Shown here: positions 1-40,165 of the stretch, piece by piece
Layout: the number at the start of each line of letters is the position of its first letter
How positions within the stretch are numbered: the first letter of the stretch is position 1
Assembly: GCF_011386835.1 (NCBI RefSeq)
Contig: NC_088792.1
Location: 30,194,001 to 30,258,000, forward strand
Origin: Chrysemys picta bellii
Lineage: Eukaryota
Direction of reading: 5' to 3'
DNA: 64,000 bases
The notes under the pieces: generated by a model
The model's database searches: none
The model's input: only the letters and a program-made list of their open reading frames with translations
What the model was told of the DNA's origin: nothing
Made by a program: the position numbers and the translations under genes

Positions 1-576
1 ACCCTGATGATTTCAAGGCCTTCCAAGACCTTATGAAATGTGTGGTAGATACATTACAGATTCCAGTGTTCCCTGTTGAACATGCATCATACATCTTCTC
101 AGGGCAAGATTGCACTACCTATCCCCAGCCTCCATGGAGTGGCAAATCCCAGCCACTGTACCACTTGCATGCAAGCGGGTTGACAAGAAGTACTATATCC
201 AGCCCATAGGCTTGGAGTATTTTTTCCTTCACCCTATAAGTAACATGCTGGTAGTTGAGGCAGTTAACTAATGGAACAGACAACATTGGTTCTGTTCAAC
301 CCCATCAAATAAAGCTAAAATGTCTGGTTTGTAAGAGCTACTGCTTGGCCTCTCTACAGCTCAGAAAAGCCAATTACAAATCCTGATAGCAAAGTACGAC
401 TTCACGTATTATTCCAAATTTGTATCTTTTATTGTATACCTGCCTCAGGATCACAGAGAACAATTTCAGGCCCTCATTACGTAAGGTTAGACAGTTGCCA
501 AAGCATCTCTCTTGATGCATTCAAGCCTCTCTTGATGCATTCAACACAGCCAAATGCCTCATGGCTATGGCAGTAG

Positions 577-1146
577 TTCTTCAAGTGCTTGCTCATGTCA
601 ATTTCCATTGTCGGTGTGCGCGCGCCCAGATGCGCGGCTGTCAGAAACTTTTGGCTTAGTGGTACCCATGGGCCACTGTGGCACCCTCTGAAATACCGTG
701 CTTGTGGCGCAATATATCGGGCGTCACTGGCCCTATGCCCTCTTGGTTCCAAGACTGTGAACTCTGAGCTCACCTCCTGGGATTCAGCTTGTGAATCACC
801 TACAATGGAATCGACATGAGCAAGCACTCGAAGAAAAAACAGTTACTCACCTTTTTGTAACTGTTGTTCTTCGAGATGCGTTGCTCATGTCCATTCCATT
901 ATCTGCCCTCCAGTCCCTCTGTCGGAGTTGTGGGCAGAAGGAACCGAGAGGGCACAGGGCCAGCTGTGCCGGATATACCGCGCCATTAGCACAGCACTCC
1001 AGAGGGTGCCACAGCCAGCCCTACAGGTACCGCTAAGGCAAAAGTCTCTGGCCACGCACATGGGTGTGTGCACACCTACAAGGGAATGGACACGAGCAAC
1101 ACATCTCGAAGAACAACGGTTACAAAAAGATGAGTAACCATTTTTT
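577..1146 (+). mobile_element. Non-autonomous mini-DIRS (lTR-ICR-rTR, no coding sequence) inserted in the host DIRS gag
   Basis: lTR 577-750 is inverted relative to rTR 940-1114. ICR 797-835 is complementary to the left end 577-616. ICR 834-897 is complementary to the right end 1083-1146 (58/64 identical, all 6 differences are transitions). Confidence 0.9.
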
Positions 1147-1781: not shown

Positions 1782-2950
1782 TATTCTCAATACTTCCTGG
1801 TTCCAAAGAGAAATGGAAGAAGGAGACCAATTCTGGACCTCAGAACTTTGAACTGTGCATCCATGCTCAACAGCTCAGAATGGTAACCCTAGCAATGTTA
1901 ATTTCCTCTCTGGATCCGGAAGATTAGTTTGTTTACCTCGACCTTCAGAATGCCTATTTCCATAGTGTCATGCATCCCTCACACTGACCATTTCTACGTT
2001 TTGTGGTAGGCAGGGACCGCTATCAGTATCTCATCCTACCCTTTGGCCTTTCCATCATCTCAAGCGTCTTTACCAATGTCCTATCAGTCGCTGCATCCCA
2101 CCTTCTCTAGATGTGAATAATTCTTTCCCTACCTGGGTTATTAGATCCTAAAAGGTCACTTGCTTCTAAAGATATAGACAGCAACCACAAAACCCAATCT
2201 CTGGTCCACTTGGTAGGGCTTTACCTCAACACACACAAAAATCTATGCTCTCACCCCTTCAGTGCATAGACTTCATTGGGGCCACTTCATCTCCATCACC
2301 GCTAGACCCTACTTGCCGAAAGACAGATTTGCCACAATGTCCAACCTTGTTTCAAAGATAAAACAAAGACTGCAAACCACAGCACAGGCTTGCCTACAAC
2401 TTCTGGGCCATGTGGTATTCTGCACATTTAGCAAGACTAATCTCTCAGTGTCTTCAAGCCTGGCTGAGAATTGTCCATTCACTCAAGTACATTCTCTGCA
2501 AATGGGTGTCCATACCTTGGAGGGGCCTCGTCTTCCAATTTGGTGGAAAGACACACTAAATGTGGGAGTTCAATTCCTGCAGCCCCTCTCTCCTCACCAT
2601 AGACACTTATCTCCTAGGTTGGGGCACACACTCCCAAAACCTCATAGCTCAGAGAAGATGGACTCCTTTGGAGGCTATCCTCAATATCAGCATATTAGAG
2701 CTCAGAGCAGTTCATCATACTTGCTAGCACTTCCTCTTCCACATCAGGGGCCACCCGACCAGAATAATGCTGAACAACAGAGCAGCAGTGTATTATACCA
2801 ACTGTCAAGACAGAGAAAGATCCCACTCATTATGTGCAGAAGCCATAAAACTGGTAAATATACAATGCATACAGATTTCAATATCTACCAGGACTACAGA
2901 ACAGAGTGGCGGATTCTCTCAGCAGACCTTTCAGCATCAAGCATGAGTAG
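1782..2950 (+). pseudogene. DIRS reverse transcriptase / RNase H remnant (stops and frameshifts)
   Basis: YSQYFLVPKRNGRRRPILDLRTLN (1782-1853), LDLQNAYFH (about 1937-1963), LPFGL (about 2036-2050), a decayed PYL(DD) region (about 2127-2140) and RNase H-like TIDTYLLGWGTH (about 2596-2631). Confidence 0.85.
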
Positions 2951-3120
2951 GAGCTGTGAGCAACGAGGTTTTCCGAAAGATGTGTCTTACCTGGAGCAAT
3001 CCACAAATAGATTTCTTCACAACTCCATCCAATAAGAAGTGTAAACGACTCTGCTTGAGGGGAGAGAATGGCTGCAACTCAATGGGGGATGCCCTAGTTA
3101 TTCCTTAGCCTTGTGTACTG

Positions 3121-3260
3121 CTTTATGCTTGTCCCCCCACGCCCCTACTGCTTATGTTCCTGAACAATTTGAAACAAGAAAGATTACTAGTCATCATCAT
3201 AGCACAGTATTGACTCAGACAGGTGTACAAAGCTGGTTCACATGTCTCTGCTACTGCCTC
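3121..3260 (+). pseudogene. DIRS Dam-like methyltransferase domain remnant
   Basis: LYACPPTPLLLMFLNNLKQEK resembles the DIRS1 MT motif LYAFPPxPLIxxVLxKIxQD, in the expected position after RNase H. Confidence 0.6.
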
Positions 3261-3429
3261 TCCATCTTTCCCTGTCAGTGAATCTTCTCAGCCAAGAGTC
3301 AAGATCCCTCACTCACCAGAATCTTCCAGCACTTCACCTCAAGGCCTGGCTACTAGATAGCTCTCTGGTATAGAACAAGACTGCTCCCCGGGTGTGCTTC
3401 ATAGCAGACTTTCAACAAGGAAAACTTAA

Positions 3430-4286
3430 TTGCAGAATCTATGCCAATCTATGCCTCCTCTTGAGTCTTGCCTTACACACGTTCTTGGTTACCTGTTCAA
3501 TTTAAAAACCTCAAGATTATTGTTGAGTTCCATTAAAGTTCACCTAGCCGCTGTCACAGCCTTTCACACGCAGCCCCTATTGAGGGGTTTTCAGTTTTCA
3601 CCCATCCAACCACAACAAGGTTTATAAACCTGTTCAACCTCTTTCCACCTTGGGGCCTCAACTTAGTACTCGGAGCACAGAGGAAACCTCCATGATCATG
3701 GAACCTATGACGAACTGTTCCCTCCTTCATTTGTCCCTTGACACGACATGCTTCATAGCCATCACCTCGGCTAGGGGGAGAGGAGAGTTTGGAGCCTTGA
3801 TGGCTCCACCCAGTATATAGAGTGTTTCACTGTGGCAAGGTGATGCTTCATTTTCACTATTTCTTCTTTCCCATGGTTTCTTCAGAATTTCACATCAACC
3901 AAGAGATTCGCCTGCTGGTGTTCAATCCCATGCCTCACTCTTCCATAGAAGAAATGGGCTTTCATACACTGGACATAAGAAGAGCTCCCAGCTTTTTACG
4001 TAGATGTGACCTGGCCCATCAGGATTTCACCCAGACTTTTCATCTCAATTGCAGAATGTATGAAAAGAGAGTTGATTTCCACCCAAACACTATCCAAATC
4101 GGTTACCGCTGCATCTTAAACTGTTACAAAGCCTCAGGGGTTGGTCCTCCTCCGAGACTCGTTGCTCATTCCACCAGGGATCAATCTACCTCATTAGCCC
4201 TTCCGAAAAACATACCTTTTCCAGACATCTCAGAGCAGCCACCTGGTCCTCACTACCCACATTTTTCCAGCACTACACTCTTGTGA
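3430..4286 (+). pseudogene. DIRS tyrosine recombinase remnant
   Basis: ORF-track fragments VLGYLFNLKTSRLLLSSIKVHLAAVTAFH and HTLDIRRA...RLVAHSTR; the H-x-x-R catalytic motif is at 4167-4178. Confidence 0.85.
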
Positions 4287-4341
4287 CTGTTCTCGGAGCT
4301 GACACAGCTGTCAGTGAAGCTGTTCCATGATCTGTACTGAA

Positions 4342-4362
4342 TCCTCCTCCTCCTCCTCCTCC
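4342..4362. repeat. (TCC)7 microsatellite inside the DIRS 3' region
   Basis: tcctcctcctcctcctcctcc, read directly. Confidence 0.9.
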
Positions 4363-7300
4363 TCAGCAACCTTCTCCATGATGGGGAGACTGCTCAGGAG
4401 TCTCCTTAGGTGGAGCACCCATAGGGATGCTACTCGAAGGAGGAGAGATTATTTATCTTGTACAGTAACTGGAGTTCTTTGAGATGCATGTACCTATGTG
4501 TGTCCCACTACCCACCCTCTTTCCGCTCTGCCTTGGAGTCTCTCTCTTTGGACTTTTTTGGTAAAGAAGGAACTGGAGTGGCAGCAGGTTCACCCCTCCC
4601 TATGTACGCTCCTGTTGGGGCATGAGGGTGACTGGGGCACAGGTGTGAACCCACAGACACAGCCAAAAAAACATCTCCAATTAAGAGCACATGGTCATGC
4701 ACATTTATCCTGATGTGGAGCAGCCACAGGAGGACACATCTCGAAAAACTCATTCCTGTACAAGGTAGGTAACCTCTTCTTCTTGATGTCTGTATTGTTT
4801 GGTTAAAGACACCCGTAGCTTGCCTTCTTGCAGAGGAGTAGCTCCCTCCACCCTTAGGACTAAATTAACTCTTTTTACCCATATATCAGACATGAGAGAA
4901 ATATAGACTGAGGTATCTGTAATAGTTATATGATGCAGAGTTATTTTTCATGTTCTTCACAGCTAGATACTTGTTTTTAATAAAAGCTGAAATTCTGATG
5001 TAATCTTATGATTCAGAATATGAATGGCCCTCTAAGCATGGGCCTATAGTGCCTGTGTCTTAATCCAGCCTTGGGTCCATTATCTATCTCATCTTGAAAG
5101 ATCATTGATCGAATGGAACATTTTATCATTCTGGCTATTGCTCTTTGATATTACGTTTAGTTGCTAAATATCTCTAGGTTACTATATTTTTAACCATTAG
5201 AAAATTTTAATATTTTATTCCTTCCCCATTCATAAACCCCAAACTGTCTAGACAATCTTTACAAACAATTCACTTGCCAAATTCAATTTTAAAACAGAAG
5301 TTGTAAAGTTATATAATTGCACAAACAATTATAACTCTGTAACCCTTTGAACACTACTGTTTGGGAAGATGATGCATTCTGAGCGTTTGGGATGGGGGCA
5401 GGCATTGGGAGGAGGAAGAATGTTCTGAACTAGGAAGAGAAGTATATGAAGTAAGTGTTTGTGGTGGGAGTGATGAGAAACTCACTTGGAAAGGGAGAAA
5501 GGGCTGTAAAAGAGTGTTGGATACTTATTATGAGATGTTAGGGCAAAGTCTTTGGCAGATAAAGTAATGGGAATAAGTGCTTGATTGAGGTTGGGGACCA
5601 TGCTGGCTGGGTCTTGTCTTCTTCTGCGTTCTAAAGATATTATTCAATTTTACTGTAATTATTTTTGTACTTGTGTGGATTAGGAGTGATGTGTGCTTGC
5701 TCTCACTCTATATATAAGTATAATATAATTTTATCTTTTTTTGTTTTTGGAAGCATTGACATTTTCGTCCTTTAGTTTGTAAAGGAGATTAAATTTACAT
5801 AATTCTTCTGTTGTTTATATACTTGTCTGTGCAAATGTCACCACCAATGGCATCAGTACTGCTCTGGGAATAGTGTCTGTCAACTGCAGCTGTAGAGCCA
5901 GAAGGGGGAGCTCCCAACATTGTTTTTTGTGTGTCTTGACTAAATAGAGGATAGTGCATGTTTTTAATATCAGAGCCAAAGAAAATGGAGGGTAGATATT
6001 TGGGTAGGGAGAGTATCCTCTGCCAGCTCTTAAGATTTTCTGTATTGCTGCTGTAAGTGATGTGGTAACAAATCCTGTGCTATGCAGGAGGTTGAACTAG
6101 ACCCTTTACATCTTTGAATCTATGAAATCCCAGTCTTACTTTGTAAGTTTATTGGGTACTTGCCCAACTTTCCAAAATGAAGACATTGTTAGTACTCAAT
6201 ATACTTACATAAAAACAAGGATTCAGAGAAAGGGAATGTTCTTTTCAGAAATTCTATGTACCGTAGTGCACCAGAGCTACCTGACAGTAACTGAAAATTG
6301 ATGTTATAAATGGCTGCTTATGATGTTATGTTGAGCTTCATCCCAGAGTAAATTTTAATGACATATTATAAACATGTGAAAAACTAAATTTAGACTGGAA
6401 ATGCTGACGGAGCTCTTAACTACAACAGATTGAACAACCTCCTGCGACAACCATTGTCACTGCTTTATCTACTTGGATAGAAAACTACAAGTAATGGAAG
6501 AATAACTATAGAGATACAGGAAGAGTGTTATGCCATATATTTTAAGAGAGTCATTCTGGAGCAGATTTTTAATTTCTTTTGTTAGAATACTCAGTATCCC
6601 TATGGAAATATTTTATATGAATTCAGATTTTTTTTAAATATTGAACATAAACAAGACTGTATTTTTAGTGTCTCTCTTTGTTTCCCGGATTTTGAATTCA
6701 ACACTTCATATGCATATCAGTAATTAAAATAGCCCATTGATATTTTGTCCCAGAAGATTTGGTCATTCCATAAAGGCAGTTCCTGTATTGTATATTTCCT
6801 GAGGGTATGAGAGCCTATACCTCCTACATATAATAAACTTCTCTTCATCTTTCTCTAATGCCATTAAAGCTACAAGCCTTTTGTTGTAAAAGTATACTAA
6901 TGAATAGAAATGTTACAACAAGAACAGAGTCTTGTGTTTTCCCTTCATCATGCATCATCCATTTTAATTAGACAAAGGGGTGGTGAGCACTGTGACAAGA
7001 GTCTGGAATTAAAATCATTAATTGATGTCAAGCTGAAGAGAGACTGCTAACATGAATTTAGTGACAGCAGGAAAGAAATTAACCTTATTACTTTATTTAG
7101 TATATTAGATTATTTAATATGTTTTCCTATGCATGGCCAATGCACTTTATTTATGATTATGGAAAAGGACAAATGATAAAAACTATGTGAATGTTCATTA
7201 TTATCTAGCAATGAAACTTGCGCAATAAACCCTTTGAAAACTAAAAACAAAAACAAAAAAAAATCAAAAGGCATGCACCAAAACTTCATAGTTTCTCTTT

Positions 7301-15813: not shown

Positions 15814-16100
15814 GGGCTTGTCTACATGACCCCCCAGTTCGGACTGCAGGAAAGTGAACTGCAGAATGCACTAGCATGCTACGCTGTAACTCCCCCATGT
15901 GGACGCTACAAATGCAAACTAGAAGGTACCTAGTTTGGGTTAATGTATTCCTGTTTAAACAGAGCTACATTAACATGAACCTAGATATCTTTTAGTTCAC
16001 ACCCACAGCATCCACACAGGGGAGTTACAGCGCAGCACATTAGCACCCACTGCAATTCACACCCCTGTAGTCCGAACTGCGGGGCCATATAGACATAGCC
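15814..16100. mobile_element. Foldback MITE, PIF/Harbinger-like (287 bp, palindromic along its whole length)
   Basis: TIRs gggcttgtctacatgacccc / ggggccatatagacatagcc. Inner arms pair (cagttcggactgcagg / cctgtagtccgaactg; gctgtaactcccc / ggggagttacagc). Centre ctgtttaaacag. Flanked by TGA on both sides (3-bp TSD). Confidence 0.8.
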
Positions 16101-21183: not shown

Positions 21184-21326
21184 AGAACATAAGAACGGCC
21201 ATACTGGGTCAGACCAAATTTCCATTTAGTCCAGTATCCTGTCTTCCAACAGTGGCCAATGCCAGGTGCCCCAGAGGGAATGAACAGAACAGGTAATCAT
21301 CAAGTGATCCATCCCCTGTCACCCAT
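21184..21326 (-). mobile_element. CR1 3' fragment of a different subfamily (TTCTTATG-type tail)
   Basis: agaacataagaacggccatactgggtcagaccaa...tccatttagtccagtatcctgtcttccaacagtggccaatgccagg. Confidence 0.8.
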
Positions 21327-21437
21327 TGCCTAACTGCAACTTCAATCGTGCCAGTTTTCACTACAAGAATTCTGTATAATAGAATTTATGAGCACCTTCT
21401 CTAGGACCTTTTCCTTAGTAAATTTCTGTATGGGATT

Positions 21438-21576
21438 CATAGGGGCTGGAATTAGGGGCTCTGAGGATGCTGCCACACCCCCTGTCTTGAAGTGGTTTCC
21501 ATCAAATACAGGGTTTACAGTTTGGTTCAATAGCTCTCAGCACCCGCACTATACAAATTGTTCCAGCATCCCAATG
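21438..21576. mobile_element. hAT-type MITE, copy 1 (same family as 57134-57286)
   Basis: TIRs cataggggctggaa / ttccagcatcccaatg. The interior (tttccatca..tacag..tttacagtttggttca) is shared with copy 2. Possible 8-bp TSD atgggatt / atggggtt; the right boundary is uncertain by about 3 nt. Confidence 0.7.
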
Positions 21577-23342
21577 GGGTTTCAGATTGCTTCAGAAATA
21601 CTTCTGTATGCAGAATTTAACTGAGGTTAGAGGAAAATAAATCAGTGATGGGTACTATAAGATGGTTCTTTTAGAAAGAAGGGTACGATCAAGCAAGTCA
21701 TATATATAGTTTGACATTGTGACGTTCTTCATTTTGAGCTTTTATGAAATCCTTGCAGATTTCAAGCCTGCAGTAATGTAGGTAGATAACAAGCCTCAGT
21801 GATTTTCAAAACCCATTTTAAATCTTAATAATTCTAGTCATATCAAATTGTCTTCTGTAGCACTAAATATGTTTTCCAAATAAATCGCTAGGAGTTACAG
21901 TAGGTGACTTTTCTTAACAGAGGAGGAACTTATATGTTCCGAGAATGAAGAATATTGAAACTAACAAAAACCAGGCAGTTTAAGGGGTTGGTTATCAGTT
22001 CAGCTCCAAGTATATTAGTTGTCTTAGCTATATTAGTTCCATTCTGTGTTCTAATGATTTGCACAGACAGTTTGTGCTGCTAAGATTTTGTTTAAATGTA
22101 TCATCTCTTCACTTTAGAAAAAGAAAGAAATGTGATGGAGTTCATGAGGCATGTTTATTTTACACGACTGGACCGAAAGGGTGTCTTGGGAATTGCATTC
22201 CTGTAGATATGGCTTTTAGTTTAGCTGAGAAATGTGTGCTAGTATGTTTTACATCATGCAGAAGAACACATGGACTGCTGATCAATAATATTTTTCATGT
22301 AGATGACGATGCTATACAATCGAGTTTTTATAGCTATCACCTAACATCCATAGTTGGAGAGTCCATAGAAAGACAGATCCTAATGGGCATTTACTGGCTG
22401 TCGCCATGTAATCATTTCCCACCAAGAGTGCATTGTCCTCAAATATAATTGAAATAAAATAGGCACTGTGCTGCTGCAAATCTAAATAGCTTGAAAATAG
22501 TAGGCTAGACTCCCCCAACTCAGTGAGGACACTTTAATGGAAACATAAATACCATAATCATATGCTTTTTGCATTCATTTGACCATTAAAAAGAAAAATT
22601 CCCATTTTAGAAGAAGAGACCTCTATGAACTGGTTTCTTTTCCATCAAAACTGGAATCAAGTTATGTCAAAGAAATATTTGGGGACTGAAAAAAAAAAAA
22701 CCCACCAAAAAGAGAAACAGTTGCCTCAGCTATCATCTGTTTAGTGCTAAAAGGCAACTGCTGTTTTAAAAATTTAAGGTCACACCACATATTTTCATTT
22801 GCTGCTCTTACAGATGAGAGGGAGCATTTTATTTAGATGTTAACTATTTGTTCAGTAGTGTTCTGCTTAACTTGAGGTGGGAATAATGAATTCTTCAGAG
22901 TAGCAAGACACATGGTAATATAATTTCAAAATATATCAAAAAGAGTAGAATAAACATACTCATTCTTTCTGGACTATGTGAAATAATTCTCTGTAATAGC
23001 CCAGTAGGTCACAAAAGCTATGAAATATTATATAGTAATGCCAGGATAAATATTGGTTAAAAAAACCAAGACACCCATACTGTTATATTAAACTTCTCCT
23101 TTATTAGTAATGTCAGTCATAGGAATTTTCTTTAAAGTCTGAGGTATCATTCACACACATAAATCTAAGCTTACTGCCATACCCATAATAGATGAAGATA
23201 TGAGTTATGACACATCCTGTAAGTGCCAAGATTTTCTCTTCCACAAAAGGAGTTATGACAGTTCTTTCATTTGCTCTGAGGTGCTAGTATAGGAGCATTG
23301 CAATGAAATGAACGACTAAGGTAATATAAACCACCTAACCAA

Positions 23343-23418
23343 TGACATTTTAAACTGTTAACTACCTGGGTTGAATAAGGCTATAAGTAGCTCCGACCCC
23401 ACCCAACCTTTGTTTATT
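23343..23418 (+). repeat. 76-bp direct repeat, left copy (target-site duplication of the CR1)
   Basis: TGACATTTTAAACTGTTAACTACCTGGGTTGAATAAGGCTATAAGTAGCTCCGACCCCACCCAACCTTTGTTTATT, identical to 28035-28110. Confidence 0.97.
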
Positions 23419-23477
23419 ACTCATAGACTCATAGACTTTAAGGTCAGAAGGGACCATTATGATCATCTGGTCTGACC
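23419..23477 (-). promoter_or_regulatory. CR1 3' RT-recognition stem-loop and octamer tail
   Basis: Minus strand GGTCAGA-CCA-GATGATCATAA-TGG-TCCCT-TCTGACC-TTAAA-GTCTATGA-GTCTATGA-GT. The 7-bp GGTCAGA/TCTGACC arms are at 23471-23477 and 23442-23448. Confidence 0.85.
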
Positions 23478-23792
23478 CCCTGCATGCTGCAGGCCATAAA
23501 ACCGTCCCTACCCCTTCCCTGGACTCTGCTGTTGAAGTCTCCAATCCTGTTTTTAGTGACTGCAATCGGCAGAGACCCTCCTGCTAGAGATCCCTGCCCC
23601 ATGCTGCGGAGGAAGGCGAAAAACCTCCAGAGGCTCAGCCAATCTGCCCTGGAGGAAAATTCCTTCCCGACCCCAAATGTGGCGATCAGTAAGACCCCGA
23701 GCATATAGGCAAGAGTCTCCAGCCCGACCCCGTTAGCCATTATACTATTTACCCACCATTGCTTGGCTTTCCTTGACTACTATGTTTTACCA

Positions 23793-26748
23793 TTAAACCA
23801 TTCCCTCCATAAACTTATCTAACTTTATCTTAAAACCAGACAGGTCCGTCGCCCCCACCGTTTCCCTCGGTAGGCCGTTCCAATATTTCACCCCTCTGAC
23901 GGTCAGAAACCTTCGTCTAATTTCAAGTCTGAACTTCCCCACGGCCAGTTTGTATCCATTCGTTCTGGTATCCACGTTAGTACTAAGCTGGAATAATTCT
24001 TCTCCCTCCCTTGTATTAATCCCTCTAATATATTTAAAGATAGCAATCATATCCCCTCTCAGCCTTCGCTTTGTCAGACTAAACAACCCAAGCTCCTCTA
24101 GTCTCCTTTCGTACGACAGCTTTTCCATTCCTCTGATCATCCTAGTGGCCCTTCTCTGCACCCGTTCCAGTTTGAGTTCATCTTTTTTAAACATGGGAGA
24201 CCAGAACTGCACACAGTACTCCAAATGAGGTCTCACCAGCGCCTTGTACAACGGAAGCAGGACCTCCTTATCCCTACTAGATATACCTCGCCTAATGCAT
24301 CCCAAGACAGCATTTGCTTTTTTCACCGCCACGTCACATTGTCGACTCATAGTCATCCTGCGGTCTACAAGAACCCCTAGGTCCTTCTCCTCTTCCGTTA
24401 CTTCTAACCAATGCGTCCCCATCTTGTAACTAAAATTGTTATTAGTCATCCCCAAATGCATCACCTTACACTTTTCACTATTAAATTTCATCTTATTTCT
24501 GATACTCCAATTCACAAGCTCATTCAAGTCTCCCTGCAGGATATCCCTGTCCTCCTCCGAATTTACAACGCCTCCCACCTTCGTATCATCTGCAAATTTT
24601 ATCAGCCCACTCCTGCAATCGGTTCCGAGGTCAGTTATAAATAGATTAAATAAAATGGGTCCCAAAACCGAACCTTGAGGCACTCCACTAGTAACCTCCC
24701 TCCAACCCGACAGTTCACCCTTTAATACAACCCGCTGCATTCTCCCCAGTAACCAATTCCTTATCCACTTCTGGATTTTCATATCGATCCCCATGTTTTT
24801 CAGTTTAACCAATAATTCCTCATGGGGTACAGTATCAAACGCTTTACTGAAATCCAGGTATATTAGGTCCACCGCATTTCCCTTATCTAATAAATCCGTT
24901 ACTTTCTCAAAGAAGGAGATCAGATTCGTTTGGCACGATCTGCCCTTCGTAAAACCATGTTGTAATTTATCGCAATTGCCACTACCCTCCAGGTCCTCAA
25001 CTAGTTTCTCTTTCAGAATTTTCTCTAACACCTTGCACACTACAGATGTTAGACTAACAGGCCTGTAGTTACCCGGATCACTTTTTTTCCCTTTCTTGAA
25101 AATAGGAATCACATTAGCTATTCTCCAGTCTAATGGGACCACCCCCGAGTTTACAGATTCATTAAATATTATCGCTAATGGGCCTGCTATTTCCCGCGCC
25201 AATTCCTTCGATATTCTCGGATGTAGATCGTCCGGTCCTCCCGACTTAGCCCCATTAAGGCGTTCAAGGTTTGTTTCCACCTCGGATACGGTAATCCCCC
25301 ATCCCGAATGCCCCTCTATAGTGGTGCTAGTATCCCTAATACCTTCATTGGCCTCATTAAACACCGATGCAAAATATTCATTAAGATATTGCGCCATGCC
25401 TAGATTGTCTTTAATCTCCTCTCCGGCAATAGACTTCAGCGGTCCCACTTCTTCTTTCTTTGTTTTCTTCCTATTTATGTGGCTGTAAAACCTCTTACTA
25501 TTGCTTTTAATTCCCCTCGCTAGGTCCAACTCTACACGGCCTTTGGCCTTTCTCACTCTATCTCTACATTCTCTGACTTCACTTAGGTACATTTCCTTAC
25601 TGATCCCTCCCCTCTTCCACTCTTTATCCGCTTTCTGTTTTTTCCTAATCGCCCCTTTGAGTCGGTCGCTCATCCAGCTCGGTCTAAATCTCTTGCTTAG
25701 TAATCTTTTTCCCTTTTTTGGAATACAGGCCTCCGACAGCTCATGCATCTTTAACTTAAAGTAATCCCAGGCTTCTTCTGCTTTTAAATCCATTAATACG
25801 TTTGCCCAGTCCACTTCCCTTACCAGTCCCCTTAGTTTGTTAAAATTGGCCTTTTTAAAATTATAAACCCTAGTCTTTGATTTAATTCTGTTACTCCTTC
25901 CATGTATTTTAAACCGAATTAGCTCATGATCACTGGAGCCCAAATTGTCCCCTACTACCACTTCCTCAACAAGGTCCTCACTACTTGCCAGAATCAAATC
26001 TAAAATGGCCTCCCCCCTCGTCGGTTCAGTTACCACTTGATGGAGGAATTGATCAGCAAGCACTTCTAGGAACATCTGAGCCCTGTTATTGCTACTAGCG
26101 TTTGTTCCCCAATCTATATACGTGAAGTTAAAGTCCCCCATAATTACACAGTTTCTGTTAGTAATTACTTTTCTAAACACATTAAATAGTTCCTTATCCA
26201 TATCCTGGGTCGATCCCGGCGGTCTATAGCACACTCCAAGCACTATCCCCGGAGAGGCTCTAGTAGTCCTATTACCCAGTGTGAGTATTGCCCAGACAGA
26301 CTCTGTGTTATCTAATCCATCCACTATTATTTCTTTACAGTTTATTTCACTATTGACATACAAGGCCACCCCCCCCACCTTTACCTTTGTTCTGGTCTTT
26401 CCTAAACAGCGCATACCCCTCCATACCTGTGTTCCAGTCTTGACTGCCATTCCACCACGTTTCCGTTATTCCTACGATATCCGGTTTCAGTTCCTGGACC
26501 AAGAGCTCCAATTCCTCCATTTTATTACCTAGGCTTCTGGCATTGGTGTATAAACACCCTAATGTATGTTGTTTAGCCCGTCTCCCATTAGCAGCACTAT
26601 ATGTTGCGGGCCTCCTTGTGTCCGTCCCCCCTGTCCTTCCTATGTCCAATCTCATCTCCCCGGCTATGTCTCCTCTCCTTTTACTCACCTTTTCCATACT
26701 GGAATCTGGCGTGGAGATTAACTGTGCATCTCCCAACCGTCTCCCCAA
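23793..26748 (-). CDS. CR1 ORF2 (APE endonuclease + reverse transcriptase), broken only by a +1 frameshift in a G8 run at 26369-26376
   Basis: EN motifs LYTNARS, GITETW, MGDFN and SSDH; RT motifs [24 protein letters not shown] and FADDTKV. The 132-aa and 885-aa ORFs join if G8 is read as G7 (KGGGVALYV). First in-frame ATG is at 26697. Confidence 0.93.
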
Positions 26749-26753
26749 ACTTC

Positions 26754-27890
26754 CTAGTTTAAAGCTCTTTTGATTAGATGAGCCAGCCTCCCTCCCAGAA
26801 GTCTATTTCCTTCCCTACTCAGGTGAAGCCCATCCCGCGAGAACAGGTGTCTGTCCCCGAAAGCCTCCCAGTGGCCATACATCCCAAAGCCCTCCTTATA
26901 GCACCACTCCCTTAGCCAACTATTTATTCTCACAATCCTATCAGCCCTTTGCTGCCCTTCCCTTGGAACGGGCAGAATCCCACTAAAGATAATCTGAGCC
27001 TCTATCTCCTTGAGCGTCTTCCCCAGCCTGGCATAATCTCCCTTGATCCTCTCTAACGAGAACCTAGCCGTGTCATTCGTTCCCACATGAAGGATTATCA
27101 AGGGGTTCTTACCTGCTCCTTTTAGGATCCTTTTCAACCGCAGGTCCACATCGCGTATCTTTGCGCCCGGGAGACAGCACACCCTTCTGTTCTCCGGGTC
27201 CGCCCTGGTCACAGGCCTGTCCAATCTCCTCAGTAAAGAGTCACCAATCACATACACCTGCCGTTGCCTGGCAACAGTGCGATCTAGTAATCTAGTCTCC
27301 GATCCCTCTAGTCCTGACCTGTGCCTGTTCCTATCTTCCCTTATGCTCCCCCTTATGCCTTCCTGAATCCTCCCGGGGCCCAGAATTGGTGCTGTCTCCA
27401 TCAACTCCTCCCCTCTCTCTCCTGGACTAGCTGCTCTTCTCTTCTTCCTCACCCTCCCACCTTCAGTCGCCACCTGCTGCCCCTCCACCTCGCTATCCAA
27501 ACACTCGAACCTATTCCTGAGTTCTATTCCCCCCTCACTGGCCCTTCTTTTCCTTGGCCTACTTCTCACAGTCACATGCTTCCACCTCCCATGTTCTCCC
27601 CCCTCCATTCCCCTCTCACCGTCCTCTACCTCTGCCTCTACCTCCGCCACAGGGCATTCTCCTTCAGCCCCCCCTTGCCTTTCCTCCATCAGCTGCTCAA
27701 ACCCCCGCCTAAACTCCACCAGGGTATCTACCTGCATCTGCAGCCCCTTAATCTTTTCCTCCAGTAACACTATCAGGCGACACTTCATACACACATACCT
27801 TTGTTCCAGGTCTCCTGCTAGGACTATATACATACCACAGCTCCCACATGTCGCCATCTGCATTCTGTCTGCTGCTGCTGCTTGGCTCAT
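26754..27890 (-). CDS. CR1 ORF1p, 378 aa (zinc finger, coiled coil, SGNH/GDSL esterase-like domain)
   Basis: ATG at 27890 in GCAGCC-ATG context. C-x2-C-x15-C-x2-C (CGSC...CMKC); heptad segment LLEEKIKGLQMQVDTL; esterase blocks VIGDSLLR, VGTND and DGLHL; ends RALN*. Confidence 0.93.
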   Translation of the reverse strand: MSQAAAADRMQMATCGSCGMYIVLAGDLEQRYVCMKCRLIVLLEEKIKGLQMQVDTLVEFRRGFEQLMEERQGGAEGECPVAEVEAEVEDGERGMEGGEHGRWKHVTVRSRPRKRRASEGGIELRNRFECLDSEVEGQQVATEGGRVRKKRRAASPGERGEELMETAPILGPGRIQEGIRGSIREDRNRHRSGLEGSETRLLDRTVARQRQVYVIGDSLLRRLDRPVTRADPENRRVCCLPGAKIRDVDLRLKRILKGAGKNPLIILHVGTNDTARFSLERIKGDYARLGKTLKEIEAQIIFSGILPVPREGQQRADRIVRINSWLREWCYKEGFGMYGHWEAFGDRHLFSRDGLHLSREGNRLLGGRLAHLIKRALN

Positions 27891-28034
27891 GGCTGCTGCG
27901 GTCCCTGCCCACAGCACCTGGGGGCATGGAGTACAGAACACACCGCGCCCTCCTGCCTCCCCGCTTACCTCCCCCTGCAAACTCCCTCTCAAACTCCCCT
28001 GTTAGCCGCCCTGTTTGCTGCCGCTGCTCGCAGC

Positions 28035-28110
28035 TGACATTTTAAACTGTTAACTACCTGGGTTGAATAAGGCTATAAGTAGCTCCGACCCCACCCAACC
28101 TTTGTTTATT
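28035..28110 (+). repeat. 76-bp direct repeat, right copy (target-site duplication of the CR1)
   Basis: Identical to 23343-23418. Flanking bases differ (a/c before, a/g after), which fixes the boundaries. Confidence 0.97.
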
Positions 28111-31100
28111 GCCATCCTTCCTATGGATGGTCTGTCTTATATTATTCTTGTTCAGTACTGCCTTACTCCACAAGTAGCTGCACTGAGATTAGATTTAATG
28201 GGGCTACTTGCAGAATAAAGGTACCCCTTCATGTGAGTGAGGGTGACAGAATCGGGCCTTTATATTGTAAGCTTCTCAGAGCAGGGACCTGTCAGTTTTA
28301 TTTATACATAAGGCTCCATAATTCATTTGTGGTGCTGTATAAATAATTTTTTAAAATCCATATATTTTCATTAGTGTTACCTCAAAAACACCGGGCCCGA
28401 TTCTTATTTACAGAAAACCTCTTCTCACCGCTCTGGCAATGTAAATGAGCCTTACATTTATGCCCATTATAAGGCCCCTTTACACTGGCAGAGTGGTGAA
28501 AAGAGGCTTAATGTAAATGCGACTCTGATTTCCTATTAAAAGGGGCTTTTAAGAATGGCATGCGTCCTGTCCTGGGTAATTCAATGACAACATTGTGGGG
28601 AACAGCTAACCGTCAGACCTGTCCAACGCACCAAACTAAAAATAATACCTGAAAAGAGAGGGGCGTGCATGTTTGGCTCGTCTTTCTCTTCCTTGTGGCA
28701 TATTCTTCCTATGACTGTGGTAAACTGTGGACAGCTAGTAAATGGGGTTTGAGACTCAGTGGGATCCTTTGTGCCTACTACTATTCCATTTGATTTTAGC
28801 ACTTACTCATACTTTACATGAAGTTCAGTGCATTCCTGTTCTTCCACTGCCAGCACCATAAACCAACAACCCTGACCCCCTAGACTGCCTAAAAATAGTT
28901 TTCTGTCTTATAGGCCTGTGGATCTAGGGACCATTAGAAACTAATAGCACTGGTATTCCAGGGACTTAGGTTGCTTTCCTTTTTCCTCCTTGAATCTTGA
29001 TGGACTATAAAACAAATTTTAATATAAATTCATGAGGATTTATGTAGAGCCCCTATTGTGAGGAGTATTTGCTGTGACACTATCCAGTGTTTGGGTTATG
29101 ATGGGGGGGGGGGAGAGACTTGAAGATTTACAGTGAGCTCTATTCAAAACATTCATTTTAATTACTCAGATGATCTGTATACTCTCTGACTAGATCCCAA
29201 GTGCTGACACTGTTGTGAGAACCACTTAATTATACATTTACCACAGCCTCACTGAAACCCTGGAATGTTTGCTTCTTCCCTCTCCAAACAGGCTTGATTT
29301 GTAATCTAAAGAGTGACAGCTATTTGTTGTTTTTCCAAAAACATAGTGAGTTAGTACTTCTAGAAATGTTTTCAATGGGAAAATGTATGGCAAGATAAGA
29401 AAGAAATGAACTTCCTATGGAAGGTTACAAAGCAGGAAGTGAACTTGGTTCCACCCAAAAGTACACCTTGTTGCTACTATACTTAAAGGTTGTTATAATT
29501 TTCTAGAAGTAAGCAATAACTCTTTTCAGTTCTTTAAATGATTTATTTAAGTGCAACTATTTTCTATGGTGAGCCAAGATAGTTATAAAAAGTGTAATTT
29601 AGCCCAGCAGAGATTCAAAACTTGTCACTCTTCATCAGTATAACTGTACAATCAAGATGCAAAAGTGGAATAAGACGACATCCTGTTGCCAAGATATGAA
29701 AGAAGAAAGCAGCTTCTGTTTTTTTCATGCTGTAGAAGACAAAGTTTAATAAAAGTAAACTTGCACAATGTTTTCCTTTAGAGTGGAGCAATACTTGATA
29801 TAAAGGAGAAAAAAGCTGCTATTTCAGCTGTCTAGTTAGTAATTATCATAAAATATATTCCACCAATGAACTATCTAGCAACAGAGTGAGCACACAAAGT
29901 TCTCTACTACCCAGCATACCTGTGCTGTAGAAGCTTTGTGGTTTTCTTGTTGAAAAACATATAGTAAATGCTTTTTGAAAGCCTTAAAATGCTTTTGAAA
30001 AGCAATAGCTCTTTCAGTTCTTAAAGGAAGTGTTATGTTCTTCCCATTAGGTGCTGTTAACATCTGTTCCCTTCTAGTCCTGTTGACCTAAATGTGCAGT
30101 TGGGGCCTGATGTTGTGCAACATAGTTATACCACAGGGCACTCCATTTGTACTAGGCACTCACAGTGGACATACACAGATTTAAAAAATCTCTAAAGGGC
30201 ATAACTATTGACATCAGCAGTTTCCTGGAGTGTACCCCTTCTGAGCACAATGGGCGTACTCTACTGCAATAAACAAGAAGTAGTTTTAGAACAGTGTTTG
30301 AGAAAGTACAAGAATTGCCTTGAGAAGGAGGATGGAAATACTGTTTAATTTGTACCCTTCAGTGAGGCTCTTAGGAAAGAGATGAGGTGAGAGTACTGTT
30401 TTAAAAAAAGAAATGAAATTAATTACCTCGGAGGAGGAACCGTGTGTGTGACTGCTTCATACTTACATCCCAAAACCCACTCTGATTTATTACATGGATA
30501 TCTCTTATAAAGGACATGTTAGGCATTCCCTATATTCCCACTATTGAGGAAGTAAGTAGCTCAATTTAGTTCACCAGGACCACTCAGAAAAGTATAATCT
30601 ACCCTCAGTAGTAAATATTTGCAGGATCCAGAGGCCTTAAACTATAAGTAACTTACAGCAAGTTGTGTGTCTCTGTGTCTCCTTGTGTATCTTGTACAGT
30701 ACACTGGTACTTCTTAACAGATAACATATGATGATGATAATAGGTGAAAGGTAGTATAATAGTTAACTTCTATAATGTTCTTATAATTAGCAAACTCAAT
30801 TTGACCCACTGTTATTTTATTATTAGTCTTCTTTACATGTAAAACAAACTATATTTAACCAGACTGTTTATTCTTATAGCCTGGCTTGTTTGTTTATGTG
30901 ACCTAAAACATATCCTGCTTCCAATCCAAGTATTTCATGGTTGACGGAAGTGGTGCAGCCTTGTCAGGGGGAAAAGAGTCCTGTACAGGAACTTTTAGGA
31001 AGGAAATGACATCACTGTGTGGGGTTTTTAATGCCTTTTAAGATCTTGTAAACTGATTTAATGCTTGTGAAAGGTTCCAGAATGACAGCCCTGGAAGTTG

Positions 31101-33119
31101 AGTAGTTTCTTAAAGACCCAGTTTAACTTTTTGTTGTCTGGAAAGATATTATGCTTCCCACTCTTCCCCTTCTCAAACTGTATAACCAGTAATGTAATGT
31201 ATTGGTACGGTGTGAATGATGCCATACTTTTCTAAGAACTAAAAGATTATATATAAGAACACTGAAATCTTGTTTCTCATGGCTCAGACATTGAGATGTT
31301 TAGAAGTTAAAAGGTTTTTCACATGATCTATTTTATATGATTATGATTTTCTGAAAAATGTTCCTGTAACATCAGTTGTACTTACTCTCTACAGAATTAT
31401 TTTCCATCCCTTAAAATACCAATGACATTTAAATAGGTTTTCAATCTGATGTATTTGACTCATGCATGCAGATTTTTCTTAGATTATGGACGTATGAAAC
31501 ATTTTTATAGTTAATAGAGCAGATATTTGTAACTGATAAGCAATTGAGTACAGCATGTGATCATTTTATGCATTTGTCATGTTACATTATTAATTAATTT
31601 GAAAGAAACATGAAAAGAACAGGTTTTGCTTCATTTTAATTTTTATAAACCATCTAGAAAATTAATATTAATAGATTTTGTAATAATATATTGCACTTGT
31701 ATAATACAATACATTATTTAATAAAAATGTTCCCTGCATCTAAACACTGAACCATTAGTGCAGAAGAACATGATGCCTATAGAAAGAGTCCTACTATTGG
31801 GCATCTAAGACTAATCCTCCTATCCAGCACCCTCACCTAACAAGCAGAGGAGAAGGAAGATAACAGTCTCAATTTCTGGCCTATCGCACTGAGACATGGT
31901 TTATTATTACTTCCAGCTCATGCCTCTCATGTAACCTAATAGTTGTAGTATATGGCATTGGGTATTACATGTCATAAAGAAAACGCTACAAAACTGTCTG
32001 ATTTTCTTTATCACTGGCATAATACATCTAGTACAAAAGTAGTAAAAGGGTTTCCTCTGTGTAGTTTTATGTATCCTCTTAAGTTGCACTTTCCCATTTG
32101 CCTGAGATCAGTTACGTGCACAGTTCCTAGAATGGAGTCACATGAACCCACCCCTTCCCAAGGATAGCTAAATACCCCTCAAGGAAGGAAGGAATGCATC
32201 TGGTCTGATTTAATTAGCTAGGTGTGATTTAAAGGTTGCAGAAATCAAAAAGGCTTATTCATTTTCCCTCAATAATCATTTTCCTTAATATTTCATCAAA
32301 ACCTGCTGATTTGGAGACCACCTTCTGGGCTTTGATTCATTATGACTACAGACATAATTTAATTTTTCCCCTTTTTCTCATTCTGTGATATACTCTTTCA
32401 TCTCTGAGACACTGTTAGAATGTTTCTAACATTCACAGATTGCTAATTGATCTAACTTTTTTTAAACTGTACTTAAAGCTAAGATCTCTCTGCCGTAAAA
32501 GCAATTTTTCATGCATTTGCTTTTAATACGTTTTCTTTCATTCTGTGCATCTGATAATGTGAAAATTTTCTTACATGTGTACTGAAAATTAAGGACATTT
32601 CATTTTTTTATGCCCTAGTAATAGTAAATCACATTCCTCTGTAATTTGGAAACATTCTTGGGCTATAGACTGAAGATGATGCCAGAACATTGACTCAGAA
32701 ACTTATTTGTTCTACAGTCATTTATTATTATCACTACTACAGCACTCAGATGTGTGCAAGGTGCTTCAGAGTACCAATAGAAAGAAATGACTTCAGCCCT
32801 GATGAGTTTACAATTTCAGTTTGGGTGTGATGCAATGGGTGAGGGTAACAAACATTAGGGAGGTCATGGGGGTGAGATTAGGAGTAGTCTTTAAAGCAAT
32901 AAGGTCACACAGTTACTGAGTTAGACATCTGCAGATATTTATGGTTCAATTGGAACTAATTTGAAATTTTAAAAAAAATTACTGTTGAGTCACTTTGCAT
33001 AAGCCCCACATCAGAAGTGTGTCTCAAGGAATTTGAATGAGAGGGGGTACTAACTTGGAGCACCAGAATTGAAAGGGCATTTCAATGGAAGAAGCCCTAG
33101 TCAAAAGAGCTAGTTCCAT

Positions 33120-36716: not shown

Positions 36717-38873
36717 TTTAATTGGGGTGGTAATAAACTCAGATCCTCTGCAGATCAGGCACGGAGGGGATGCTCACCAGTGGGTCACACAGCCGCCCTT
36801 ACAACAGTTATTGGATGTGGTGGTTTGTTTTCTGTTACGAAGTTTTTCTTTCCTGTTAATAACATGTCCAGCATAATACTTCATTGCCATTTTCAGTATT
36901 GGAGGGGCTTGTTTTAAAATGATTTTAAAATATAGTAGGTTCATAAGGCAGAGGTGTGTTGAAATTTGCATACCATTCCAGAATTCATCACCCACTTCTA
37001 CACCCCAATTTAAAAATGTGCTAGCAGCAACAAGAACAAGAATGAAGAGGAGCAAAGAAAAGATGAAAATCACAGAATTTTGAGCATGGTGGGAGTAGAG
37101 GTGAGGGGATCATTTTAGATGGTGACGAGATATGGGGCAGGAATTAGGAAAGGTGATCTCAGAGGATAAGTTGTTACGAGAAGAGACAGAGATGGTGGGG
37201 AGAAAATGAGACTTGGAAGAAGAGTGGTGGCGAATGAAGAGAGAGGAGCTGTGTGTCCAAGGGAAAAGGCAGCTGGGAGTCTGGAGCCTGAGAAGGATGA
37301 AGAGTGGAGCTGGAGAGTGCAGGGGAAAGGAAACAGCCCCTAATCTGTGTCATTAAGCTACATGACTATACAAATACACACATTATTCACTAGAATAAAA
37401 CAATAAAATGTTGCTGTTAAAATATTTTTTTCTTTTATGAGCCTTTTCTCCAGTATTCACCTAAGATTAACCTGGTCCATGAAACCCAAACGATGTTCAT
37501 TCCCTCCCTGCAACATCAGCAACGCTACAGGAACAGAAATAAGGCCTGGCTGCAGGATCCCATTATCTAAATTCAGCCTTTCTCCATGTCTCTGTCAGAT
37601 CAGAACAACTTGAATGGGCATGAAACAGCAGGAGAGGCAATGTATGTGCTCAGGTTCTTGCAGCTCCGTCACATTACCATCTCATTGTGTCTGCAAGGGT
37701 GCTGCAGACTTGATTAAAAAAATTAATGATGAGAAACAAAAATGAGAGAGAGGAGAACAAAGGAAAAAAAGTAAAGGGAGCATGGAGGAAGTTTACTGCA
37801 TAAAAGTCATTCAGTTATCCCTCAGAGCCTAGATCCCTTGTCTAATTGTCTAAGTTGGTCCTTCAGGACTGAACTGCTTAAGTGAAATGGCAGTGCTGTG
37901 GTAAGGTAACGACGGGAGGCAGGTTGTGAACAGGATTGCACATATATGCATGAACAGTGAAGCAGAGATTCCATCTGTTCGTATTTGTCTTGTACCCCTG
38001 TTAGTAGCAGAGATGCAAAGACTGCCAAATAAAAAGACTAAATGCTAGCCAGTAGTCCCTTCTGGTCAAGGTTGAGGCATTGGTGGTACAGTTTGAGGAA
38101 ACGTGACCTGATCCTTTGTATGCTGTGCTCTTTCTGTGACTAGTTTCCATCTCCAGGGCTGTAAATCTGTCAGTTTACACTGTATTAAATTTGTTTAGAA
38201 ATCTGAAGGAAAAGAAAAACAGCATAAAAATATCTCATTGCAAAGTCATTGGATACTGAAGAACATCAGAACTGAGCTGAAGTAGAAATGAAAGCGCTTT
38301 AACCAGAATCAGTGTACCATTGCAGCTGTTTATGCCAACAAAATACCATGATTGGAGGGACATCATGATGCGTAACTTTCAACCTTAAAGCACTAAGCAA
38401 GAATAAATTTATCTTTGGTACCTCTCCCGCCACATCCCTTGAGAAGAGAGAGCCCTCTTCCATCACTTCCCCTGACCAAAAAAACCCCTCCTCCCAGCCT
38501 TCTAGTCCTGTTCTATCATCCCATTTTAAACAAGTCCCAGGACACCCAAGGCATCCAACCACCCGTAGACTGAGAACCATATACTTTCCACTCACCTAAA
38601 TGCAACCATCCCAGGTTATCAGTTCATTAGCTCTGTTGACTCCCTACCAAGTTCTTCTTTGTCCCTGCCTTATTTCCCCACTGAAACCAGCTCAGCCCTC
38701 TCTTTCCCAGCTGTATGAAGGTGTCAGAAACAGGTAGGGTGAGGAGGCAGATGGCATTAGGAGCATAGTCAGGGAGAGGAGGCGGGTTCCCATTAAGGAG
38801 CATGGCAGAGAACGTCTATTTCATTCTAGGCAAGAGTCCTAAGATGTACTCCCTTCCAGTGGCCAGAAGCCTA

Positions 38874-39145
38874 GGGTTTGCCTAGACAAATAGTTGGTGT
38901 GCAGCCCGCTGGGGTGTAAATCTACAGGGCACAAGCATGCTGCACACTACCTGTCCATGTGCACCCTGCTACAGAGTACTAAAAGGTCTCTAGTGTGCAC
39001 TGACCTACTCCTGTTTAGCAAGGTAAATCAAAGTGCAATAGGGAACTTTTAGTGCACGGTAACAGGGCCACATGGACAGGTAGTGTGTGCCCTGTAGATT
39101 TACACCCCAGCTTCCTGCACACCTCCTATTTGTCTAGGCAAGCCC
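38874..39145. mobile_element. Foldback MITE, PIF/Harbinger-like
   Basis: TIRs gggtttgcctagacaaatag / ctatttgtctaggcaagccc. Inner arms ctggggtgtaaatctacagggcac / gtgccctgtagatttacaccccag. Flanks cta / tta. Confidence 0.8.
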
Positions 39146-40165
39146 TTAGTTTTCTTCCCTAGCACATTGCCCCATGGAGACTTTCAGTTTCTTAGGAAAT
39201 TAGCAAGTCCTTGGGTAGTTATATATTTTTACTTGTATAACACCCTAAGAGTATGGTATGGCAGTTTTTATAGATTAATAAGATACAGTCCCTGCCTTAA
39301 AGGTCATAGAGTCAAAGTTTAGACATAAGACAATGTAAAGAGGATGGAAGAGAAAGGGGGAGGACAAAGGTTACAACAGTAAGATCCTCATGTGGTTGCT
39401 TTTGATGACTCCAGGTAACATACACCTGGAAATTAGCTAGTTTCGTAAGGGATCATGTACCGCCTACAACAATGCAAGTATTATCTGGAGTGTAAAAAAA
39501 AAAGTTTCAGAGACACAGAATCAGAAGAAAAAGTGCTTTCTTTAGTAATCATAATTCTTACTCATGCTACATCATTATACTTACATTTCATTTAAGATTT
39601 TAAAGAACAACTCCTATTCATTTAAGATTTCCATCAAAAACTTCTTCCAAACCTGCTTAGTGCTGTATGAATAGTGAAATGATTCATGCAGCCAGACCTT
39701 TCTAACTGAATAATTGATACATTTTGACAAGCTGAACATACAATTGGGTATATTTGCCTCACTATATGCGTGTGATGATTAACGTAAGTAGGAACTTACG
39801 TGTGCTCATCAAGGGGAGAAAATGCCCCAGTGTGGCTATTGCCTGATGGTTCAGTGAGCTGAACTTTGGTACTAGATTTAGTCTGTTGATAATGTTTAAC
39901 AGAGTATAGTGATGGTTTATAGATCTGCATGTGAAAGTATAAAATTCAGTGCACTGCAGAGAGATCGGGAGCTAATTACAATGGTAAGAATGTAAATGGA
40001 CACTATCAATTTGTTTAGGCCCCAAAATTTACCCTGCTAAATTCTAAACCATATTCCTGGAGGATAGATTAATAAACTCTTATTTCTGCCCTCCCCTCCC
40101 CCGCAGCTCATTGGCAGCATGATGCCATTGGAGCCATGCTGCCATGGCTGCCTCCAGGCCCCTGA

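What the first reader, a model, noticed from the sequence alone, without database searches (positions are those of the whole stretch)
23343..28110. Exact 76-bp target-site duplication around a full-length CR1
Seen: 23343-23418 and 28035-28110 are identical over 76 nt and abut the octamer tail and the 5' end directly. Known: CR1-clade insertions usually leave short or no TSDs, and L1 TSDs are mostly 7-20 bp. Inference: second-strand nicking occurred 76 nt from the first nick, or the insertion healed a staggered break. Zero mismatches also indicate a very recent event.
Basis: partly seen in the sequence, partly recalled or inferred. Interest (0 to 1): 0.7.

Follow-up and report, generated by a model that had tools for sequence, protein, structure and literature searches.

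The report
Turtle CR1 with 76-bp target duplication
A young, nearly intact jumping gene in a turtle genome is flanked by two identical 76-base copies of host DNA, about fifteen times longer than its family normally leaves; this is probably a rare but known kind of insertion accident, still to be confirmed in raw reads.

Summary
23343-23418 and 28035-28110 are identical over 76 nt, cannot be extended, and directly abut a 4,616-nt minus-strand CR1 LINE (esterase ORF1 intact; APE+RT ORF2 broken once, in a G8 run). The 76-mer has host-like GC (0.39 against 0.49-0.64 in the adjoining element), occurs nowhere else in the window, and is the only non-microsatellite exact repeat of 20 nt or more in 64 kb. 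Best reading: a real long target-site duplication (L-TSD) from target-primed reverse transcription that was finished at a distant second-strand break. L-TSDs over 20 bp are a named, rare class for L1 and zebrafish L2/CR1-group LINEs in cultured cells. CR1 normally gives 3-5 bp. I found no report of a natural CR1 case in 10 literature searches. ORF integrity and retained CpG are better evidence of youth. No read-level test of the junctions or the empty site was obtained, so a join of two haplotypes by the assembler (76 = 77-1) remains possible, about 13%. A single outlier of a known kind, with one testable idea: long staggers may favour full-length CR1 copies.

The parts
23343..23418 (.). 76-nt repeat, copy next to the element's 3' tail (putative TSD)
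   Evidence: GC 0.39, like host tiles at 0.37-0.38
23419..23436 (-). CR1 3' octamer tail, 2.25 units of GTCTATGA; no microhomology with the target at the junction
23419..23792 (-). 3' UTR, 374 nt
23793..26697 (-). ORF2 (APE endonuclease + reverse transcriptase), in two frames as assembled; start codon inferred
   Evidence: Pfam PF00078 E 5e-38, PF14529, PF03372; best solved relatives are L1 ORF2p
26369..26376 (-). G8 run where ORF2 changes frame; real mutation or homopolymer error in the assembly, not resolved
   Evidence: the related locus L001 reads through the same motif in one frame
26754..27890 (-). ORF1, 378 aa, uninterrupted, with N-terminal Cys motifs and a C-terminal SGNH esterase domain
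   Evidence: PF13472 E 5.5e-11; 88% identical over its full length to P0001, a Chrysemys picta bellii protein
27891..28034 (-). 5' leader, 144 nt, 67% GC; 28034 is the first element base
28035..28110 (.). 76-nt repeat, copy next to the element's 5' end (putative TSD)
   Evidence: GC 0.39 against 0.64 in the adjoining element tile

Best explanation
A young turtle CR1 inserted by target-primed reverse transcription. Inferred steps: (1) the ORF2 endonuclease nicked the + strand after the T-rich end of the 76-mer; (2) the RT copied the RNA from the octamer tail to, or close to, its 5' end; (3) the usual second cut about 3-5 bp away was not used, and the event was finished at a break in the other strand 76 nt away, with the duplex between the breaks unwound and both strands filled in. 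This left two copies of 76 nt of host DNA. Shown: the repeat, its exact fit to both element ends, its host-like composition and the element's anatomy. Inferred: that the empty site has one copy, and every mechanistic step.
For: Exact, non-extendable repeat touching both ends. Host-like GC and no other copy in the window or in 79 of 79 fetched CR1-like loci. Two other CR1 3' ends examined (L001 and the old copy near 49000) are followed by unrelated DNA. Tail complete and endonuclease-type words TNARS, ITETW, YRPP, GDFN, LDL, SDH all present (their catalytic roles are recalled from L1, and a search of that region against solved structures found 0 matches). The inferred first nick follows 5 T in 6 bases before a purine, as at 0.8% of host positions (chosen after looking, and based on L1's recalled preference). 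Youth: CpG o/e 0.57 against 0.19 in the rest of the window and 0.22 in the old CR1; P(at most 1 lesion) is 0.07 at 1% and 0.017 at 1.5% neutral divergence. Precedent: L-TSD over 20 bp is a defined class; 1 of 25 ZfL2-2 inserts in wild-type DT40 cells had one, of 1,228 bp (PMC2666801); TSDs over 100 bp reach at most 10% of L1 inserts in HeLa cells and 57-91% in NER-deficient lines, explained by a distant second nick (PMC5223499).
Against: No empty allele and no junction-spanning read was seen. All long-TSD precedents that I read come from cultured cells or tumours, not from germ-line CR1. Published CR1-group TSDs are 1-10 bp. An exact 76-nt repeat with clean junctions is also what an unmerged k=77 graph overlap would give. 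The far end of the repeat shows no L1-like cut motif at the inferred second break. The ORF2 frameshift in a homopolymer may mean that this stretch of the assembly is imperfect.
Confidence: 0.6

Rival explanations
1. The duplication is real and made during insertion, but by extra DNA synthesis and not by a 76-nt stagger. Either the reciprocal end was extended by break-induced or fork-coupled replication, or a nick at the TTTT/AA site 9 nt inside the repeat was first extended 67 nt along the host strand by displacement synthesis and then jumped to the RNA tail (9-nt stagger plus 67 copied nt).
For: Small tandem duplications at L1 sites are described as large TSDs made by break-induced replication (10.1101/2024.12.14.628481). 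The only TTTT/AA in the 76-mer has its cut 9 nt from the left end, a placement seen in 2.2% of random host 76-mers, and 9 nt lies within the 2-10 nt range of coelacanth CR1 TSDs.
Against: The motif was noticed after the fact and is L1's preference (recalled); coelacanth CR1 shows no obvious target specificity. The replication-type duplications are 1-10 kb. One finished allele cannot separate this from the best explanation.
Confidence: 0.2
2. Assembly artefact. In an individual heterozygous for the insertion, the filled haplotype was joined to a piece of the empty haplotype that begins with a k-1 overlap (76 nt for k = 77), so host DNA appears on both sides although the real TSD is short.
For: 100% identity and clean junctions. 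76 = 77-1, and 77 is a common k-mer size (recalled). The window has a 188-nt N gap and ORF2 has a homopolymer frameshift, so the assembly is not flawless.
Against: No other such duplication in 64 kb, and the 300-nt flanks of the N gap share no exact 12-mer. No N lies within 34 kb of the element. The join would have to fall exactly on an element end. A 4.6-kb young repeat assembled in place suggests long reads, which do not leave k-1 overlaps (inference).
Confidence: 0.13
3. The 76-mer was already duplicated in tandem and CR1 landed exactly between the copies, or two nearby CR1 insertions on homologues recombined unequally.
For: Gives the same final sequence; the window has one 20-nt near-tandem duplication at 507-544.
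Against: Needs an insertion at one exact base of a rare, still identical duplication, or two independent insertions 76 nt apart.
Confidence: 0.04
4. The 76-mer belongs to the element, as a terminal repeat or a carried flank.
For: It starts with AATAAA in element sense right after the tail, which could act as a polyadenylation signal. Other copies of this exact subfamily were not seen.
Against: Host-like GC. Absent after the tails of L001 and the old CR1 in the window. A 3' transduction would not also put it at the 5' end. Terminal direct repeats are not part of the CR1 structures described in 10.64898/2026.01.13.699120 (passages).
Confidence: 0.03

Closest known systems
Canonical amniote CR1 LINE with esterase ORF1 (10.64898/2026.01.13.699120; PMC4316615)
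   Same: Esterase ORF1, APE+RT ORF2, octamer microsatellite tail, no poly(A), about 4.6 kb; nearest ORF1 relatives are turtle proteins.
   Different: Flanked by 76 nt in place of the 0-10 nt reported for CR1; ORF2 carries one frameshift as assembled.
Long-TSD (L-TSD, over 20 bp) inserts of zebrafish ZfL2-2 (CR1-2_DR) in DT40 cells (PMC2666801)
   Same: CR1-group LINE with a long duplication of target DNA; rare (1 of 25 in wild-type cells).
   Different: That insert was engineered, somatic, L2 clade and 1,228 bp; this one is a natural copy in a genome assembly, canonical CR1 and 76 bp.
Large TSDs of human L1 in HeLa and NER-deficient cells (PMC5223499)
   Same: Proposed mechanism: completion at a distant second nick.
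   Different: L1 clade, poly(A) tail, cultured cells, mostly over 100 bp; that paper calls TSDs under 100 bp small, so 76 bp is long for CR1 but not by its scale.
R9 elements of bdelloid rotifers (Gladyshev and Arkhipova 2009; title only, seen in the reference list of PMC7943196)
   Same: Non-LTR element with an exceptionally long TSD.
   Different: R9 is rDNA-specific and makes its long TSD as a family trait (126 bp, restriction-like endonuclease; both recalled); here it is one copy of an APE element.

Membership tests
Canonical CR1 LINE | ORF2 with APE endonuclease and RT | tested here: met
   PF03372, PF14529, PF00078; split by one frameshift
Canonical CR1 LINE | Esterase-type ORF1 | tested here: met
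   PF13472 above cut-off, 43.7 against 32.9 bits; turtle relatives 61-96% identical
Canonical CR1 LINE | 3' octamer microsatellite tail, no poly(A) | tested here: met
   (GTCTATGA)x2+GT; feature described in PMC4316615
Canonical CR1 LINE | Conserved 3' UTR hairpin | tested here: inconclusive
   The last 72 nt fold into a hairpin, but no better than shuffles: z 0.26, 114 of 200 fold as well
Canonical CR1 LINE | RT phylogeny inside the CR1 clade | not tested
   No named CR1/L2 reference set was on hand; 65-70% nucleotide similarity to the old CR1-like copy in the window and to L001
L-TSD insertion (over 20 bp) | Direct repeat over 20 bp touching both ends of the insert | tested here: met
   76 nt, exact, both ends
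L-TSD insertion (over 20 bp) | Pre-insertion site holds one copy of the repeat | not tested
   No empty allele was obtained; one search shows only that related runs hold the left flank region
L-TSD insertion (over 20 bp) | Repeat is host DNA, not part of the element | tested here: inconclusive
   Host-like GC and absent beside two more distant CR1 ends; no other copy of the same subfamily seen
L-TSD insertion (over 20 bp) | Both junctions present in raw reads | not tested
   No read-level result was obtained
Endonuclease-independent insertion at a pre-existing break | 3'-truncated tail or loss of normal insertion hallmarks | tested here: not met
   Tail complete, endonuclease words present; 3' truncation as a mark ascribed to this route is

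The most novel reading that the evidence does not exclude
Long TSDs are not an accident here but the route by which turtle CR1 makes its rare full-length copies. A short 3-5 bp stagger falls apart, exposes ends to repair and gives 5'-truncated copies, while a long stagger holds the target together until the RT reaches the 5' end. Full-length turtle CR1s would then be strongly enriched for TSDs of tens of bases, which TSD searches limited to 30 bp miss, and such copies could be excised precisely by recombination between their TSDs. This extends the model of PMC4245944 (stable duplex between nicks gives direct joining and full length) to a natural CR1; one locus fits it, nothing here tests it.
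Probability: 0.12. Interest if true: 0.7.

Novelty: new member of a known kind. Interest (0 to 1): 0.35.

Why it matters
How the second strand is cut during LINE insertion is still open, and for CR1 almost all data come from truncated or old copies. A natural, near-intact CR1 with a 76-bp TSD would show that the long-TSD route seen in cultured cells also passes through a reptile germ line. If it is common among full-length copies it would link TSD length to the birth of new source elements. It would also qualify an assumption of retroposon phylogenetics, that CR1 cannot be excised precisely because its TSDs are under 6 bp (PMC3265382); recombination between long TSDs was proposed to remove L1 copies (PMC5223499). 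As a single unconfirmed locus it is a curiosity and a good seed for a genome-wide count.

Tried and rejected
No whole genome is held for the window, so TSD lengths could not be tabulated across the family. No read or contig alignment across the locus was obtained, so junction support and the empty allele stay open. (window 21700-23418): 18 of 24 listed runs hold 0.67-1.00 of the words, from 7 studies and 6 organism labels; leaving out the 3 possible source runs, 15 runs of 6 studies. This shows that the left flank exists in related genomes. It says nothing on the empty site, and only about 3% of the query's 31-mers lie inside the 76-mer. Looking for other copies: ORF1 in viral contigs, 0 of 7 candidates confirmed; a 28-nt tail pattern in metagenome contigs, 0 matches; the ORF2 C-terminus in metagenome contigs, 79 loci, mostly distant (27-81% identity over the best segment). 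Of the 79, 37 had 300 nt on both sides of the match and 3 of 37 had an exact bracketing repeat of 20 nt or more; all 3 are parts of longer, diverged or multi-copy repeats, not TSD-like. Element ends were not mapped in these loci, so this is no valid background. The 76-mer has no notable DNA fold (about -4 kcal/mol, no shuffle control). A 74% match of 31 nt at 31418 was not recovered by the BLAST search and is taken as chance. No host exon was identified beside the element: only stop-to-stop ORFs in 21300-22500 and 28111-31500 were listed, none was searched. Earlier findings: nothing by place, sequence or first words. PMC1716264 is not held.
Full report
Observation. The repeat is real in the assembled sequence. 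Positions 23343-23418 and 28035-28110 are identical over 76 nt and the neighbouring bases differ on both sides. Chance expectation is 7e-36 pairs in 64 kb. Of 18 exact direct repeats of 20 nt or more on the + strand, 17 are short offsets inside simple repeats and this is the only other. The 76-mer has no third copy in the window; the best other hit is 12 nt.

What lies between. The 4,616 nt between the copies are a minus-strand CR1 LINE. In element sense: a 144-nt leader of 67% GC; ORF1 of 378 aa with an SGNH esterase domain (PF13472, E 5.5e-11); ORF2 with endonuclease and RT domains (PF03372, PF14529, PF00078); a 374-nt 3' UTR ending in 2.25 units of the octamer GTCTATGA. The nearest ORF1 relatives among 47 hits are proteins of Chrysemys and Malaclemys at 88-96% over 34-100% of the query, so the host is most likely an emydid turtle (inference). 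Three close relatives start with the same MSQAA sequence. ORF2 changes frame once, in a run of eight G at 26369-26376. The related locus L001 reads through the same motif in one frame. Whether the break is biological or a homopolymer error is unresolved. The true 5' end cannot be fixed without a family consensus, so 'full-length' means that ORF1 and a leader are present.

Is the repeat host DNA? Its GC is 0.39, against 0.37-0.38 in the two tiles to the left, 0.43-0.45 to the right, and 0.49-0.67 in the adjoining element tiles. It does not match any of 79 CR1-like loci from metagenome contigs. The two other CR1 3' ends that I could read, L001 and an older copy near 49000, run into unrelated DNA. 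These are more distant subfamilies (about 65% nucleotide identity), so the test is indirect. Runs from six organism labels hold the left flank region: 18 of 24 listed, 15 from 6 studies when the 3 possible source runs are left out. That makes an empty-site test feasible but does not perform it. No read-level result was obtained, and no genome is held.

Age. With 76 sites, 0 mismatches allows up to 2.0% divergence per copy at 95%, roughly 20 million years at 1e-9 per site per year (rate recalled, order of magnitude only). Better evidence comes from the element. In a neutral-decay simulation of ORF1 and 2,571 nt of ORF2 (my parameters: CpG 8-fold, indels 0.08 per substitution, 300 replicates), at most one lesion had probability 0.46 at 0.5%, 0.07 at 1% and 0.017 at 1.5% divergence. 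CpG o/e is 0.57 in the element, 0.22 in the old CR1 and 0.19 in the rest of the window. The copy is young, probably under about 1% diverged, but 'very recent' is not shown.

Mechanism. In element sense the 3' junction is tail, then the start of the 76-mer, with no overlap between the next expected tail base and the target. The 5' junction is the end of the 76-mer, then the leader. The simplest reading is a first nick on the + strand after ...TTTATT, reverse transcription of the whole RNA, and completion at a break 76 nt away on the other strand. A T-rich end before a purine occurs at 0.8% of host positions, but I picked this motif after looking and from L1's recalled preference. The endonuclease-type words are all present, although the region gave no match among solved structures, while the RT region matched L1 ORF2p best. 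A second real route gives the same product: extra synthesis on the host template. The only TTTT/AA in the repeat has its cut 9 nt from the far end (2.2% of random 76-mers), which would fit a 9-nt stagger plus 67 nt of displacement synthesis before the jump to the RNA. This is speculative. The serious non-biological rival is an assembler join of a filled and an empty haplotype with a k-1 overlap, since 76 = 77-1. Against it: no other such duplication in the window, no overlap at the only N gap (62588-62775), and the join would have to fall exactly on an element end. I put a real insertion-made duplication at about 0.8 (0.6 distant break, 0.2 extra synthesis), artefact at 0.13, the rest at 0.07.

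What is known. PMC4245944 (passages and section 9): TSD peaks are clade-specific, 13-15 bp for L1 and 3-5 bp for L2 and CR1, citing Ichiyanagi and Okada 2008, which I did not read; 93% of ZfL2-1 inserts in DT40 cells had 1-8 bp; L-TSD is defined as over 20 bp; a stable duplex between the nicks is proposed to favour direct joining and full length. PMC2666801 (passages): 1 of 25 ZfL2-2 inserts in wild-type DT40 had an L-TSD, 1,228 bp. PMC5223499 (passages): TSDs over 100 bp in at most 10% of HeLa L1 inserts and in 57-91% in NER-deficient lines; distant-nick model. PMC2912911 (passages): genomic L1 survey limited to 5-30 bp, so longer TSDs were not counted. PMC4255032 (passages and section 11 part 1): 13 of 16 polymorphic coelacanth CR1s have TSDs, 2-10 nt, all 5'-truncated. 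PMC3265382 (passages): avian CR1 TSDs absent or under 6 bp. 10.1101/2024.12.14.628481 (passages): 1-10 kb duplications as large TSDs by break-induced replication. 10.64898/2026.01.13.699120 and PMC4316615 (passages): CR1 structure; the former has no mention of TSDs. 10.64898/2026.06.26.733778 (passages): TSD lengths across more than 600 vertebrates, figures and supplements not seen. PMC4540587 (passages): precise excision as a source of homoplasy. R9 was seen as a title only. Ten searches of the held library listed no paper that by title or abstract start reports a natural CR1 with a long TSD; I opened 12 papers, and most subscription journals are not held.

Verdict. The element is an ordinary young turtle CR1. 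The 76-nt flank is far outside the published CR1 range but belongs to a named, rare class of LINE insertions. It is a new natural member of a known kind, unconfirmed at read level. The interest lies in the follow-up: whether full-length CR1 copies are enriched for long TSDs (probability about 0.12; interest 0.7 if so). Overall interest 0.35.

Noticed in passing
window 26369-26376: ORF2 frameshift in a G8 run is the only lesion seen in either ORF; if it is an assembly error the copy would be a candidate active CR1.
   Followed up: partly
window 49031-50452 (minus): Older CR1 ORF2 fragment, 65-70% similar to the young element, CpG o/e 0.22, with no recognisable octamer tail after its 3' UTR.
   Followed up: partly
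window 573-1117, 15815-16100, 38873-39146, 58091-58176: Imperfectly palindromic stretches (70-80% self-complementary), probably non-autonomous DNA transposons.
   Followed up: no
window 21473-21572 and 57188-57284: A 100-nt dispersed repeat pair at 79% identity, probably a SINE or other repeat fragment.
   Followed up: no
window 2217-4864: Several stop-free frames of 90-272 aa in a cluster, possibly a decayed retroelement read off-frame; not searched.
   Followed up: no
window 62588-62775: A gap of 188 N; its flanks share no exact 12-mer.
   Followed up: yes
L001 1-2764: A metagenome contig that holds most of an amniote-type CR1 ORF2 (61% identical in the C-terminal part) with an octamer tail of two units, probably host DNA in the sample.
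   Followed up: partly
window 26754-26802 (minus): The frame leading into ORF2 is open back across the last 16 codons of ORF1; the turtle protein P0021 is predicted with the same read-over sequence.
   Followed up: no
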